Assembly (NCBI GenBank): GCA_963762115.1 | Contig: CAVXJH010000006.1 | Span: forward strand, 128,001-192,000 | DNA: 64,000 nucleotides | Source of the DNA: Candidatus Babeliales bacterium | GTDB taxonomy: Bacteria; Babelota; Babeliae; Babelales; JANWKD01 | Reading direction: 5' to 3' | Shown here: in pieces, positions 39,442-43,790 of the stretch | Layout: each line of letters begins with the position of its first letter | How positions within the stretch are numbered: position 1 is the first letter of the stretch | Notes under the pieces: model-generated | What the model saw: only the letters and a program-made list of their open reading frames with translations | What the model was told of the DNA's origin: nothing | Database searches by the model: none | Translations under genes and position numbers: made by a program

Positions 39442-39680
39442 AGTATTTTACATCCTTATTGATAAGCTTTTATAGACGACACGTTACTAATAAAATGCAC
39501 TGTATCACATTTTTTTATGATTTTCTACTTCAATGCCTGCATTGATTTGATGAATTTCTACTATTTACAGATAAGTTTGGGTATACTAAGAAAAGAATAT
39601 AACAAACTATAATTCTAACAGTAACGTCGTCTATCTTAAAAATTGAACAACTCGTTGGAAAATAGTAATTGGAAAAAAGT

Positions 39681-41207
39681 ATGAAAAAAATTTTAATTAG
39701 TGCAAACCCTTGGCAAACAAAAATTGCCGTTACCCGTGATGATGAACTACAAAATATCTATTTTTCATCGCATGCAACAGAAAACTTAGAACGCTCATTT
39801 TTTAAAGGTACTATCATCAAGGTGCTTCCGGGTATCCAAACTGCTTTTGTTGATATTGGCCAAGAAAAAGCTGGCTTTTTACACATTTCAGAAATCGATC
39901 GTGAAATGGCTCTTCATAAAATGACAAGTACTGTTGAATTGGATGATGAAGAAACAGCGACTCCTGAACCTGAACGACAATCCTATCAAGCTATGGATAT
40001 TGGCAAAATCCTCAAAGAAGGCGAACCTATCTTAGTGCAGGTCAGCAAAGAACCGGTGTATGAAAAGGGTGCAAAACTCACAACATGCTTCACTCTACCG
40101 GGCAGATTTATCGTGCTTATGCCAAATATTCCTCGCATTGCCATTTCTAAAAAAATTGAAGAACGAGAAGAACGACAACGCTTAAAAGAAATTTTGGCTA
40201 AAAATCTTCCTGAGGGCATGGGAGCAATTATTCGAACAACCTCTGACGGAAGACAAGAAAAAGAAATTGCTCAAGATTTACACTTTTTAGTATCAACCTG
40301 GCAACAGATTGAAAAAAAATACAACGAGGCAGAGCGTAAAGAAAAAATTTATGAAGATTTGCCGCTCACGTTGCAAATTGTGCGCGATCATCTTGATGCT
40401 GATGTGGAAGAAGTTATTTCAGACAATCAACAAAATCAACAAGAAATTTATAAATTTGTAAAAAAAATAGCACCAGAATTTAGTTATAAAATTCATTTTT
40501 TTAGTGGCAATCAAGATCTTTTTGATAAATACACCATCAATCAACAACTGCAGCAGTCATTATCCGAAAAGGTACATTTACGCTCAGGTGGTTCAATTAT
40601 TATTGAAACAACTCAAGCAATGACGGTTATTGACGTGAATACCGGACGCTATATTGGTAAAAGTGACCTAGAAGAAACTATTTTAAAAACAAATCTTGAG
40701 GCAGCTGAAGAGATCACCCGACAATTGAGGCTACGCAATATCGGTGGGCTTATTGTTATTGATTTCATTGATATGTCCTCACCGGCAAATCGACAAAAGT
40801 TATTTAAAACCTTTGAAAGAATGCTCAAAGAACGTGATAAATTTCAATCAGTTGTCTTAAAAATTTCTGAATTTGGCCTTGTACAAATGACCAGAAAACG
40901 TTCAGGCAAAACGCTCATTCAAGAATTAACTGAATCATGCCAAACGTGCAAAGGCCTTGGTTATATTAAAACAATTCAAACAATCTGTTTTAATTTATTA
41001 CCAAATATTAAACAAGCATTATATGCAAATAAAGGACACAATATTCTTACCATTGAACTGCATCCAAGAACATTTGATTATATAACAAACCAAGAATATA
41101 ATTCGATTTTTTATTTTGAGAAAAATTTTGGGTGTAAGCTTATTTTGGAAACAAATGACGAAATGCCACTTGATGAATTTAAGATTGTGCGGGAAGAAAA
41201 AAATTAA
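39681..41207 (+). CDS. rng: Ribonuclease E/G family
   Basis: PGIQTAFVDIG, VQVSKEP, AMTVIDVNTG, RLRNIGGLIVIDFIDM, GLVQMTRKR, CQTCKG. Confidence 0.95.
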   Translation: MKKILISANPWQTKIAVTRDDELQNIYFSSHATENLERSFFKGTIIKVLPGIQTAFVDIGQEKAGFLHISEIDREMALHKMTSTVELDDEETATPEPERQSYQAMDIGKILKEGEPILVQVSKEPVYEKGAKLTTCFTLPGRFIVLMPNIPRIAISKKIEEREERQRLKEILAKNLPEGMGAIIRTTSDGRQEKEIAQDLHFLVSTWQQIEKKYNEAERKEKIYEDLPLTLQIVRDHLDADVEEVISDNQQNQQEIYKFVKKIAPEFSYKIHFFSGNQDLFDKYTINQQLQQSLSEKVHLRSGGSIIIETTQAMTVIDVNTGRYIGKSDLEETILKTNLEAAEEITRQLRLRNIGGLIVIDFIDMSSPANRQKLFKTFERMLKERDKFQSVVLKISEFGLVQMTRKRSGKTLIQELTESCQTCKGLGYIKTIQTICFNLLPNIKQALYANKGHNILTIELHPRTFDYITNQEYNSIFYFEKNFGCKLILETNDEMPLDEFKIVREEKN

Positions 41208-41344
41208 GATCAGCCCCGTAGAGGTGAAGATAGTCCAGCCGTCGCTTATCCACGCCTTCAGGCTTGGCAAGCTTGTATGTTAAATCAAAATGATTTTAAA
41301 GCTAAATTTTGTTAATTTATGATCAGTTGTTTTGAAATTAATTG

Positions 41345-41495
41345 TTTGAGAAGCTGATAGATCTCGTGTCAAGCTTGGTCTCAAAGGACCGTGTCATAGT
41401 TTGAGACTATCAGCTTATACAAAAATGACCTCGAACAATCACTAGAGACGTATCAAGTACATACGATCTCGCATGTCTACAAGCCAGAGGTATTT
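41345..41495 (+). ncRNA. IS110 bridge RNA (target- and donor-binding loops; 5' end may extend to ~41285)
   Basis: Two stem/internal-loop/hairpin modules carrying TGTCAAGCT + GTCATAG (target guides) and ACAATCACT + TACAAG (donor guides). Confidence 0.88.
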
Positions 41496-42437
41496 ATGAA
41501 AAATATATCAAAAGTATTTATAGGTGTCGATATTTCAAAAAACACTTTAGATGTTTATATCCATCCAGTAGGAAAATCTTTAAAAGTATCAAACTCAGAA
41601 GTTGGAATAACGGAGATCATTAAAGAATTAGTTAAATATGATATCGAACAAATTGCATGCGAAGCAACTGGTGGGTATGAAAAATTACTTGCTCGAATAT
41701 TAAAAAAAAATTGTTATTATCTTTGGATCATCGATCCAAGAAGAATAAAAGGCTATATTGTTGCTAGTGGCTGCAAAAGCAAAACGGATAAAATTGATGC
41801 TCGAAAAATTGCTGAATTTGCTTCTAAAAATTCTCCTGATTATGAGATAATGAACAAAAGCGAAAATCAAGAAAAATTACAAGCTTTGGTCAATCGTAAA
41901 AATGACTTGGTAAAATTTTTAGTTGCCGAAAAAACAAGATCTAAACATCCATCTCATGCATTATATGCATCAAGTATAAAGAAATTTATCAAAATCTTAG
42001 AGTGCGAAATCAAATCAATTGATTTAAAGATACAAGATTTAATTCAGCAAGATGAAAAATTAAATACAAAATCAAAAATTTTGGAGTCAATTCCAGGAAT
42101 AGGCAAAACTTCAGCTGCAACATTATTATCATTCGTTCCTGAACTTGGTCAAATAAGTAATAAAAAAGTATCAGCACTCATTGGTGTTTGTCCTTATGAG
42201 AATGAAAGTGGAAGTTATAAGGGTAAAAAATTCATCAGAGGTGGAAGAACTATTCCAAGAAATATGCTTTATATGTGTGCATTAACAACTATTAAATATC
42301 ATCTCCCATTAAAGGAACTTTACGATCGTTTAATAACTTCTAAAAAACCTTTTAAAATAGCTATCGTAGCTATTATGCATAAACTTATTGTGATTGCTAA
42401 TTCTTTACTAAAAAAAGGTGAATTATGTAAAGCTTAA
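41496..42437 (+). CDS. IS110 family DEDD recombinase/transposase
   Basis: GVDISK, CEATGGYE, KTDKIDA, SIPGIG, ENESG catalytic Ser loop, RGGR. Confidence 0.97.
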   Translation: MKNISKVFIGVDISKNTLDVYIHPVGKSLKVSNSEVGITEIIKELVKYDIEQIACEATGGYEKLLARILKKNCYYLWIIDPRRIKGYIVASGCKSKTDKIDARKIAEFASKNSPDYEIMNKSENQEKLQALVNRKNDLVKFLVAEKTRSKHPSHALYASSIKKFIKILECEIKSIDLKIQDLIQQDEKLNTKSKILESIPGIGKTSAATLLSFVPELGQISNKKVSALIGVCPYENESGSYKGKKFIRGGRTIPRNMLYMCALTTIKYHLPLKELYDRLITSKKPFKIAIVAIMHKLIVIANSLLKKGELCKA

Positions 42438-42566
42438 TATTGTTTAGCTTTATTAAAAAATATTTGACTTTTAACACAATCACTATGGCGGACAGCTTTC
42501 GCAGACATTTTCTTATCATAAATCATTTAAAAAAATGGCCACGCCAGCTGAAGCCTTGGCGAAAGC

Positions 42567-43022
42567 TGGTGGAGGCGATGGGAATCGAACCCATGTCCGC
42601 ATCATGTCGGACCCAAGGCGCTACATGCTTAGTTTTCGAATATACAAACGATAACCCTCAAAAACAAAAGATGAAATCGTAGGTTAGTTGCGTGATATTC
42701 TTTTGATTACCCAGCTAAGAAGTCTAACAAAAGAATCTTATCTGATATTATACGTGTCAGCTCAACTGATAAGCACGCCTCGCTGACAAGATCAAACAGA
42801 GGTATTAGCAATAGCCAACTACAGAAGATACTTCACTGAAAGCGTTTCTAAAAACGTTTTGAGCTGTAAATACCACTTCATTAGCTAATGTTTTAACTCT
42901 GGTTGATAGACCAATATTTTGATCTGCATTTATTGTTTTTGACCACTTTTTTTACGAGATCTCAGTCAAAACTCGACATGCTCCTTGCGTCATCTATAAC
43001 ACGTCGAAACCTGGACGCCCCC
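42567..43022 (-). ncRNA. ssrA: tmRNA (456 nt)
   Basis: 5' GGGGGCG..GGTTTCGAC and 3' GGGTTCGATTCCCATCGCCTCCACCA forming an Ala-type acceptor stem with G3-U; internal ATAAAT-GCA resume context. Confidence 0.95.
42805..42927 (-). CDS. tmRNA tag reading frame ADQNIGLSTRVKTLANEVVFTAQNVFRNAFSEVSSVVGYC
   Basis: GCA resume codon after ACAATAAAT, 40 codons to TAA. Confidence 0.75.
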   Translation of the reverse strand, partial: ADQNIGLSTRVKTLANEVVFTAQNVFRNAFSEVSSVVGYC

Positions 43023-43142
43023 AAAAATTTCAAAGAAATCTTAATTTTTCATTTCTAATTGTAATGTTTATAGGGTGTTTTGTCAAGTATGCTTTAGCAA
43101 GCTACTAATTTTTTGATTAAAAAGATAGGCGCTTAATTTTAA

Positions 43143-43790
43143 CTATTTTTCTTTCTTCCGAGCTTCATAAACCTGACGGAATTTATCGAGAAAAGTTTCA
43201 TGGGACATTTTTTTTGTAATAAAAGACCAGGTAACATGATCTTCTTCATTTTTAACTTTTTTACCTTCTGTTTGCTCATCAAAAACAATATCAGAATCAA
43301 AACCATACATATTTTCAAATTTTTTGACTTGATCTGAACCTTCAAGGATAATTTCGGTTTCTATATGATCAAGATCACCTTGTTCATCAAAATAAATTTT
43401 ACTAAAAAACTCACTAAAATCTGCCAACTTAGAATGAAATTTATCAATAAAAACTGAGCAGGATTGACTTGGGATCGGTTTTTTAGTCGAATTCATTATT
43501 TGCCATTTTACATTATCATCAGGATTATCTGAAGGCCTCGTCCTAAACCTCAGCACTCCATCTTCTGTAAAACATTTCGGTTTTCGTTCAGTAAAATATT
43601 CCGATTTTCTTATAAAAGCACCTAAATAGTTACTCCATTGATATCTATCACTCCAATATAAATTATGAAAAATTAAAGCATTAGTTATTGATGAACCAGC
43701 CAACTGAAGTTTAGACCTTACCTGTTTCTCTTCCATTGCATTCATTGCTGGAACAATTAAAAAACTGAGCAAAAATAGTATTTTTTTCAT
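43143..43790 (-). CDS. Secreted hypothetical protein
   Basis: MKKILFLL signal peptide, AMNA|MEE. Confidence 0.75.
   Translation of the reverse strand: MKKILFLLSFLIVPAMNAMEEKQVRSKLQLAGSSITNALIFHNLYWSDRYQWSNYLGAFIRKSEYFTERKPKCFTEDGVLRFRTRPSDNPDDNVKWQIMNSTKKPIPSQSCSVFIDKFHSKLADFSEFFSKIYFDEQGDLDHIETEIILEGSDQVKKFENMYGFDSDIVFDEQTEGKKVKNEEDHVTWSFITKKMSHETFLDKFRQVYEARKKEK

What the first reader, a model, noticed from the sequence alone, without database searches (positions are those of the whole stretch)
41272..42484. Promoter assembled only on IS110 excision/circularisation
Joining the right end to the left end through one CT gives TTGACT-TTTAACACAATCACTTG-TATGTT. That is a -35 (42464-69) and a -10-like hexamer (41276-81) spaced by exactly 17 bp, pointing into the bridge RNA and recombinase. 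In the integrated state the two halves are 1.2 kb apart. Short subterminal inverted motifs TGTTAAA/TTTAACA flank the core. Junction promoters are known for IS110 elements, so this independently supports the end assignments.
Basis: partly seen in the sequence, partly recalled or inferred. Interest (0 to 1): 0.7.

Follow-up and report, generated by a model that had tools for sequence, protein, structure and literature searches.

The report
IS110 circle-junction promoter, known type
The two ends of this five-copy IS110 jumping gene each carry half of a promoter-like sequence, which would be joined when the element circularises and likely then drives its predicted guide RNA; this is an ordinary, already published trick of the family, seen here in a new member.

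Summary
Observation confirmed. Five near-identical copies and intact empty sites fix the element at 41272-42484, between two CT cores. Joining the ends gives TTGACT-17-TATGTT, in the same register as the published IS621 junction promoter. The same boxes and spacing recur in 20 of 22 related elements (own included; recombinases 31-87% identical to each other). TTGAC lies outside the guide-bound and inverted-repeat bases, so its conservation points to promoter function. The left end holds a predicted bridge RNA whose donor guides spell the junction (9/9 and 6/6).

Limits: no junction was found in this assembly or in contigs of 8 runs, and activity is untested. The match alone is modest (9/12; 3-9% by chance). 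'Only' is too strong: rng reads into this copy, the target repeat offers a weak hybrid -35, and in IS621 the linear form is also transcribed.

Side results: all 4 of 14 REP-like copies that fit the right target guide are occupied. A fifth insertion matches only that guide. The subterminal repeat is 7-8 bp and covaries.

The scan found this mechanism before on other DNA. Verdict: new member of a known kind, low interest.

The parts
41240..41271 (+). Left part of the REP-like target repeat; left target TGGCAAG at 41265-71; TTGGCA at 41264-69 is a possible weak hybrid -35
   Evidence: 14 copies of this 30-mer family in the genome, 4 occupied by the IS; the reconstituted empty site folds as a hairpin; hybrid match
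41272..41273 (+). Left CT core
   Evidence: boundary shared by 5 of 5 copies
41274..41495 (+). Left end, 222 nt, non-coding
41276..41281 (+). -10 half TATGTT; overlaps the right donor (CTTGTA, 41272-77) and the subterminal repeat
   Evidence: T1, A2, T3 and T6 invariant in 22 of 22 elements; variants TATGAT, TATCTT, TATATT
41278..41284 (+). Left subterminal inverted repeat TGTTAAA
   Evidence: complementary to 42470-76; pairs kept in 14-21 of 22 elements per position, with compensatory changes
41288..41491 (+). Predicted bridge RNA; start inferred 6 nt after the -10, as in IS621
   Evidence: fold z = -3.72, 0 of 200 shuffles as good; two-loop consensus in 14 relatives, 11 of 34 pairs with double-sided changes
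41351..41416 (+). Target-binding loop: left target guide 41367-75 (TGTCAAGCT, 8/9 to the target); right target guide about 41392-99 (pairs CTATG plus wobbles)
41428..41491 (+). Donor-binding loop: left donor guide 41435-43 (ACAATCACT, 9/9 to the right-end side of the junction); right donor guide 41478-83 (TACAAG, 6/6 to CTTGTA); the closing stem pairs the SD-like GAGGT
41496..42437 (+). IS110 DEDD recombinase, 313 aa; D12, E56, D98, D101, S238 intact
   Evidence: PF01548 + PF02371; NF033542 at 190 bits, cut-off 140; IS621 8wt6 E 1e-32; residues
42464..42469 (+). -35 half TTGACT (5/6)
   Evidence: 19 of 22 elements at the same offset, plus 1 shifted by one base
42470..42476 (+). Right subterminal inverted repeat TTTAACA
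42476..42482 (+). Left donor ACAATCA
   Evidence: equals the first 7 nt of the left donor guide; changes with the guide in relatives
42483..42484 (+). Right CT core
   Evidence: 5 of 5 copies
42485..42494 (+). Right part of the REP-like target (ATGGCGGACA)

Best explanation
This is an intact, five-copy IS621-type IS110 element whose right end carries a -35 box and whose left end carries a -10-like box, which would form a sigma70 promoter on the circular intermediate that likely drives the predicted bridge RNA and the recombinase. Shown from sequence: the ends, CT cores, both boxes and their 17-bp spacing, the four guides, the intact catalytic residues, the REP-like targets and the conservation in relatives. 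Inferred by analogy to IS621: (1) low read-through from flanking genes (here rng) or weak hybrid promoters make the first recombinase and bridge RNA; (2) recombination at the two CT cores makes a 1211-bp circle, by excision or copy-out; (3) the junction promoter starts near 41288 and raises expression; (4) the donor loop binds the junction itself and the target loop binds GGCAAG-CT-ATGG in the repeat; (5) insertion splits the promoter again, so expression is high only while the element is a free donor.
For: Same register as the tested IS621 promoter: 13 nt + CT + TG between the boxes (activity in PMC11208160 section 5, and PMC13626964 section 5). TTGACT-16/17-TATnnT in 20 of 22 junctions, against a straddling match in 2 of 20 integrated left ends and 0 of 18 integrated right ends. 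Columns -19 to -14 are 19-21/22 conserved while -20 to -40 are 8-17/22. TTGAC is outside the inverted repeat: three of its five positions pair with the left end in only 5, 1 and 9 of 22. The boxes occur on all main branches of the recombinase tree. The donor guides match the junction and change with it. The host has one sigma70-type factor with canonical region 2 and 4.2 motifs and a TTGACA-17-TACAAT site upstream of tmRNA.
Against: No junction was seen in the assembly, in contigs of 8 runs (contigs only, depth about 7 at best), among 10 pattern hits in 261 genomes, or among 9 viral hits. The -10 is 4/6, and its bases are also held by the right donor guide and the inverted repeat. In relatives the left core was placed with that guide, so T1-A2 are conserved by construction. 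Two of 22 elements lack the -35 at the usual place (L005 TTGCTT; L019, right end at a contig end). Relatives are kin, not independent.
Confidence: 0.88

Rival explanations
1. The junction is real as the recombination donor, but the conserved bases are protein- and guide-binding signals (donor, subterminal repeat, a recombinase contact at TTGAC). The promoter likeness is incidental or too weak to matter, and expression comes from read-through or internal promoters.
For: TATGTT overlaps the right donor and the inverted repeat completely. A score of 9/12 is common here: 12 such sites in 2.3 kb against 9.2 expected. A co-directional upstream ORF is present for 3 of 5 copies.
Against: TTGAC is conserved at the exact -35 distance, outside guide and repeat. 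Of the 4 elements whose -10 moves to TATGAT or TATATT (5/6), 3 lose repeat pairing in doing so and 1 compensates. IS621 has boxes in the same register with a different sequence and tested activity.
Confidence: 0.08
2. The junction promoter works, but the integrated element is not much quieter: a -35 supplied by the target repeat (TTGGCA-16-CAAAAT) or the internal TTTAAA-17-TATGAT drives similar bridge RNA levels, so there is no real switch.
For: The hybrid scores the same 9/12 and TTGGCA is present in all 4 repeat-inserted copies. Two of those 4 have no co-directional ORF among the two nearest upstream.
Against: A straddling match occurs in only 2 of 20 integrated left ends, close to the 3-9% background. 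The internal site was not seen in the relatives' left ends on inspection (not counted formally).
Confidence: 0.1
3. The promoter-like match is chance in AT-rich DNA.
For: 3.3% of random joins and 9.4% of shuffled ends give some straddling match.
Against: TTGAC + 17 arises in 0.07% of controls, and the same register holds in 20 of 22 elements.
Confidence: 0.02

Closest known systems
IS621 of E. coli and its RE-LE junction promoter (Durrant 2024, PMC11208160: section 5, passages and supplement hits read; Hiraizumi 2024, PMC11208158: passages; Hiraizumi 2026, PMC13626964: abstract and section 5)
   Same: CT core; long left end with a two-loop bridge RNA; short right end; DEDD plus serine recombinase; REP-type target; -35 in the right end, 17 bp, -10 in the left end right after CT-TG; left end starts TGTAT
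   Different: Distant protein (117 bits to 8wt6); other boxes (TTGACT/TATGTT against TTGCAG/TATTAT); other left donor (ACAATCA against ACAGTAT) and target; right target guide pairs 5-6 bp plus wobbles against 4; subterminal repeat 7-8 bp against 2-3; activity untested here
ISEc21 (IS110 family) and ISEc11 (IS1111 family) minicircle promoters (Siddiquee 2024, PMC11187229: passages read)
   Same: Abutted ends of a circular intermediate form -35/-10 boxes
   Different: ISEc11 has its non-coding region downstream of the gene; that paper describes IS110-type repeats as absent or short and imperfect
IS492 and IS4321/IS5075 junction promoters (Perkins-Balding 1999; Partridge and Hall 2003; seen only as reference entries)
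   Same: Circle formation cited as reconstituting a promoter
   Different: Not read and not compared by sequence
ISPpu10 and ISPpu9 of Pseudomonas putida (10.64898/2026.03.19.712850: abstract and outline; PMC12288879: search listing only)
   Same: IS110 elements inserted in repeated intergenic or REP sequences
   Different: A target stem-loop requirement was not tested here; the fifth copy lies outside the repeat

Membership tests
IS110 family | [quoted passage not shown] | tested here: met
   both over cut-off; NF033542 over cut-off; D12/E56/D98/D101/S238 align with IS621 D11/E60/D102/D105/S241
IS110 family | Short core at both ends; scarless empty site with one core | tested here: met
   CT at both ends in 5 of 5 copies; identical 32-nt empty site in 3 intact copies of the interrupted element
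IS110 group (IS621-like) | Long left end, short right end, bridge RNA in the left end | tested here: met
   222 nt against about 45 nt; two-loop consensus fold with 11 of 34 pairs doubly changed in 14 sequences
IS110 group (IS621-like) | Four guides matching target and donor | tested here: met
   left target 8/9; right target 5 Watson-Crick pairs then wobble, pair, wobble; left donor 9/9; right donor 6/6; donor guides change with the donor in relatives
IS110 group (IS621-like) | Sigma70-like boxes split between right and left end in IS621 register | tested here: met
IS110 group (IS621-like) | Subterminal repeat short (2-3 bp per PMC11208160; absent or short and imperfect per PMC11187229) | tested here: inconclusive
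   7 bp perfect here, 7-9 bp in 13 of 22 elements: longer than the IS621 pattern and at the lower bound given for IS1111
IS110 family | Circular intermediate exists | tested here: inconclusive
   no junction in the assembly or in low-depth contigs of 8 runs; no raw reads were offered
IS110 family | Junction promoter is active and starts the bridge RNA | not testable with these tools
   needs reporter or start-site mapping
IS1111 group | Long right end holding the RNA | tested here: not met
   right end about 45 nt; the guides are in the left end
IS1111 group | Subterminal inverted repeats of 7-17 bp | tested here: met
   7 bp, covarying; not enough for membership given where the RNA lies

The most novel reading that the evidence does not exclude
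A lineage-wide IS110-group clade that keeps its bridge RNA in the left end yet has IS1111-length (7-8 bp), covarying subterminal repeats. Six bases (TATGTT) would then serve at once as -10 box, right donor and repeat arm, trading promoter strength against recombinase binding. Its longer right target guide dominates site choice: it fills every matching repeat copy (4 of 4, against 0 of 10 others) and can insert on a right-arm half-match alone, a class that the IS621 half-match preprint could not score.
Probability: 0.35. Interest if true: 0.38.

Novelty: new member of a known kind. Interest (0 to 1): 0.17.

Why it matters
The mechanism is published and tested for IS621 and ISEc21, so the finding adds a member, not a principle. 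Its value is modest. It extends the IS621 promoter register to a clade of distant elements in a small-genome lineage. It supplies about 20 natural compact (about 310 aa) bridge recombinases with one shared donor and varied targets. It offers a natural case of right-guide-dominated targeting and of a right-arm half-match insertion, both relevant to off-target rules in bridge editing.

Tried and rejected
Search for the physical junction found none. It is absent from the assembly. No RE-to-LE joint appeared in contigs of 8 of the 20 listed runs; only X1 held most of the element, at depth about 7, and contigs drop rare forms, so this is no evidence of absence. The two RNA runs laid (X10, X11) covered the tmRNA end and short unlike pieces only.

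A junction pattern over 261 genomes gave 10 hits, against at least 5 control hits in the listed rows. Only L043 lies by a recombinase, and it is a right end followed by a donor-like flank, not by a left end. Nine exact viral hits lie in one homologous region with no IS110 gene nearby and were rejected as chance.

Extending the inverted repeat over the -35 was rejected. An extended -10 was rejected because the TG sits directly before the hexamer. tmRNA as the insertion target was rejected: it ends 83 nt away and the other copies lie elsewhere. CAAAGG in the target loop is complementary to the fifth site's left flank but lies in the wrong order for pairing; I took it as chance. Rfam has no match to the left end. 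The automatic left-guide placement misplaced several cores and was replaced by the right-donor-guide rule. Three strings from this element had no hit in the Durrant supplements (three files were cut when stored and one was unreadable), so inclusion of this clade in that dataset is not excluded.

Full report
Observation. All coordinates check. Joining 42484 to 41274 through one CT gives TTGACT-TTTAACACAATCACTTG-TATGTT with a 17-nt spacer. It scores 9/12 and is the only match at 16-18 nt spacing that straddles the core in this element. The ORF 41496-42437 is an IS110 recombinase: PF01548 and PF02371, NF033542 over cut-off, nearest solved structures IS621 and ISCro4, with D12, E56, D98, D101 and S238 intact. 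It lies between an Rne/Rng-family gene (39669-41207) and a convergent tmRNA gene (42567-43022).

Ends. The genome holds 5 copies that differ at 1-2 positions. Their flanks diverge just outside CT at both ends. Four sit in one REP-like repeat. The fifth interrupts an integrase-core (rve) transposase gene ('IS481-like' is my recall). Its 32-nt empty site with a single CT stands unchanged in 3 intact copies. The element is thus 1213 bp with both cores and would give a 1211-bp circle. This evidence does not use the promoter.

Bridge RNA. The left end folds better than 200 of 200 shuffles (z -3.72). Fourteen relatives at 55% or more protein identity give a two-loop consensus; 11 of 34 pairs show double-sided changes and 456 of 473 cells pair. 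The donor loop holds ACAATCACT (9/9 to the right-end side of the junction) and TACAAG (6/6 to CTTGTA on the left-end side). The RNA thus spells the joined sequence, the best sequence evidence that the junction is a working substrate. The target loop matches the repeat 8/9 on the left. On the right it gives 5 Watson-Crick pairs followed by wobble, pair, wobble.

Chance and conservation. Alone the match is modest. Some straddling 9/12 site arises in 3.3% of random CT joins and 9.4% of shuffles of the ends; TTGAC + 17 arises in about 0.07%. Relatives were found in 20 of 261 genomes of the phylum, own included, plus 4 metagenome loci and L001, which is the same element as L004. I took 26 distinct elements and dropped 4: no donor guide found (L021, L028), right end beyond the contig (L032), left end missing (L015). 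Right cores were placed by the left donor guide, which does not touch the -35; two (L017, L018) were moved one base by hand on right-target-guide evidence. Left cores were placed by the right donor guide, which fixes the first two -10 bases by construction. Of 22 junctions, 19 read TTGACT-17-TATnnT and one reads it with 16. L005 has TTGCTT, and L019, whose right end is at a contig end, has none. Integrated left ends give a straddling match in 2 of 20 and right ends in 0 of 18. Conservation falls from 19-21/22 across the -35 to 8-17/22 just upstream. The inverted repeat covers about 8 pairs and stops before TTGAC, so neither guides nor repeat explain the -35. The recombinases are 31-87% identical and the boxes occur on every main branch (the long branches include broken frames). 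These are kin, so the counts are not independent events.

Comparison with the literature. The Durrant 2024 supplement gives the IS621 junction as TTGCAG, 17 nt ending CT-TG, TATTAT, with the RNA starting 6 nt later. This is the same register and puts the predicted start here at 41288. That paper shows transcription from the junction in IS621 and five orthologues, and loss of recombination when the -35 is removed unless the RNA is supplied in trans. Siddiquee 2024 shows sequenced minicircle junctions with boxed promoters for ISEc11 and ISEc21 (passages). Hiraizumi 2026 shows that the linear form is weakly transcribed and that read-through is required for excision (section 5). A 2026 preprint argues that IS621 circles are mostly single-stranded copies (abstract), so 'excision' may be copy-out and the promoter would then need second-strand synthesis. 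Earlier scan notes report the same mechanism on other genomes; none overlaps this place. A listing for Dependentiae/Babelota with IS110 terms showed no mention of those names in the top 15 of 703 papers. That host label is my inference from the small genome and one-order phylum and comes from no call. I do not claim the clade is absent from print. bioRxiv supplements were not seen.

'Only' applies to this promoter, not to expression. rng ends 64 nt upstream on the same strand, and 3 of 5 copies have a co-directional upstream ORF. No terminator-like site was found in 41000-43300. The repeat contributes TTGGCA-16-CAAAAT, equal in score to the junction but at background frequency among relatives. 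No junction was seen in the assembly, in contigs of 8 runs, or by pattern scans; these tests had little power. Activity is untested.

Side findings. Of 14 repeat copies (30-mer, at most 6 changes), the 4 followed by CT-ATG are all occupied and the 10 followed by ACG, TCG, TCC or ACA are empty (Fisher p 0.001, copies not independent). The fifth site matches the left target guide 3/9 and the left donor 4/9, but the right guide over 6 pairs plus 2 wobbles; 0.5% of CT sites have that ATGA. It fits a right-target half-match, a class the half-match preprint excluded for IS621 because its guide is 4 bp (section 8). It is a single event. The 7-8 bp covarying repeat is longer than the 2-3 bp given for the IS110 group and reaches the IS1111 range of 7-17 bp, though Siddiquee allows short imperfect repeats in this group.

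Verdict. The feature is real and correctly read. It is most likely a working circle-junction promoter of IS621 type (0.88). It is a new member of a known kind; interest 0.17.

Noticed in passing
G000:C6, copy with left core at 255179 (- strand): Fifth copy inserted in frame-reading direction into another IS's rve transposase gene at a site matching only the right target guide (left 3/9); three intact copies of that IS hold the same empty site.
   Followed up: partly
G000, 14 REP-like copies; window 41240-41273 and 42485-42494: Every repeat copy followed by CT-ATG is occupied (4 of 4) and none of the other 10 is: targets look saturated.
   Followed up: yes
window 41428-41432 and 41487-41491: The closing stem of the donor-binding loop pairs the SD-like GAGGT in front of the recombinase start, which could damp translation (inference from the fold).
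   Followed up: no
window 42539-43022 (- strand): tmRNA gene (Rfam 148 bits, missed by ARAGORN) points at the IS right end, with a second repeat-like hairpin at its 3' end and TTGACA-17-TACAAT upstream (43086-43058); read-through would be antisense to the recombinase.
   Followed up: no
run X4, record 21: A related strain joins the end of rng to the tmRNA end with 139 other letters and no IS.
   Followed up: no
run X3, record 14: A close variant element differs at 41368 and 41396, inside the left and right target guides; one contig at depth about 4.
   Followed up: no
L005, left end: The first 18 nt of the left end are duplicated in tandem, and this element's -35 is degraded to TTGCTT.
   Followed up: no
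L010, flanks: A 26-nt stretch starting at the right core is repeated about 75 nt upstream of the left core; the right flank fits the right target guide only 4/6.
   Followed up: no
L015/L041/L043 (G026): Broken element with no recognisable left terminus whose right end is followed by a donor-like TGTAT flank; possibly a donor half-match event.
   Followed up: partly
L053-L061: Nine viral contigs carry the 20-nt junction pattern inside one homologous region with no IS110 gene nearby (looks like a T4-type terminase region by recall); judged chance.
   Followed up: partly
G000, many places: A further, roughly 190-nt dispersed repeat family with dozens of copies lies next to the rve-type IS.
   Followed up: no
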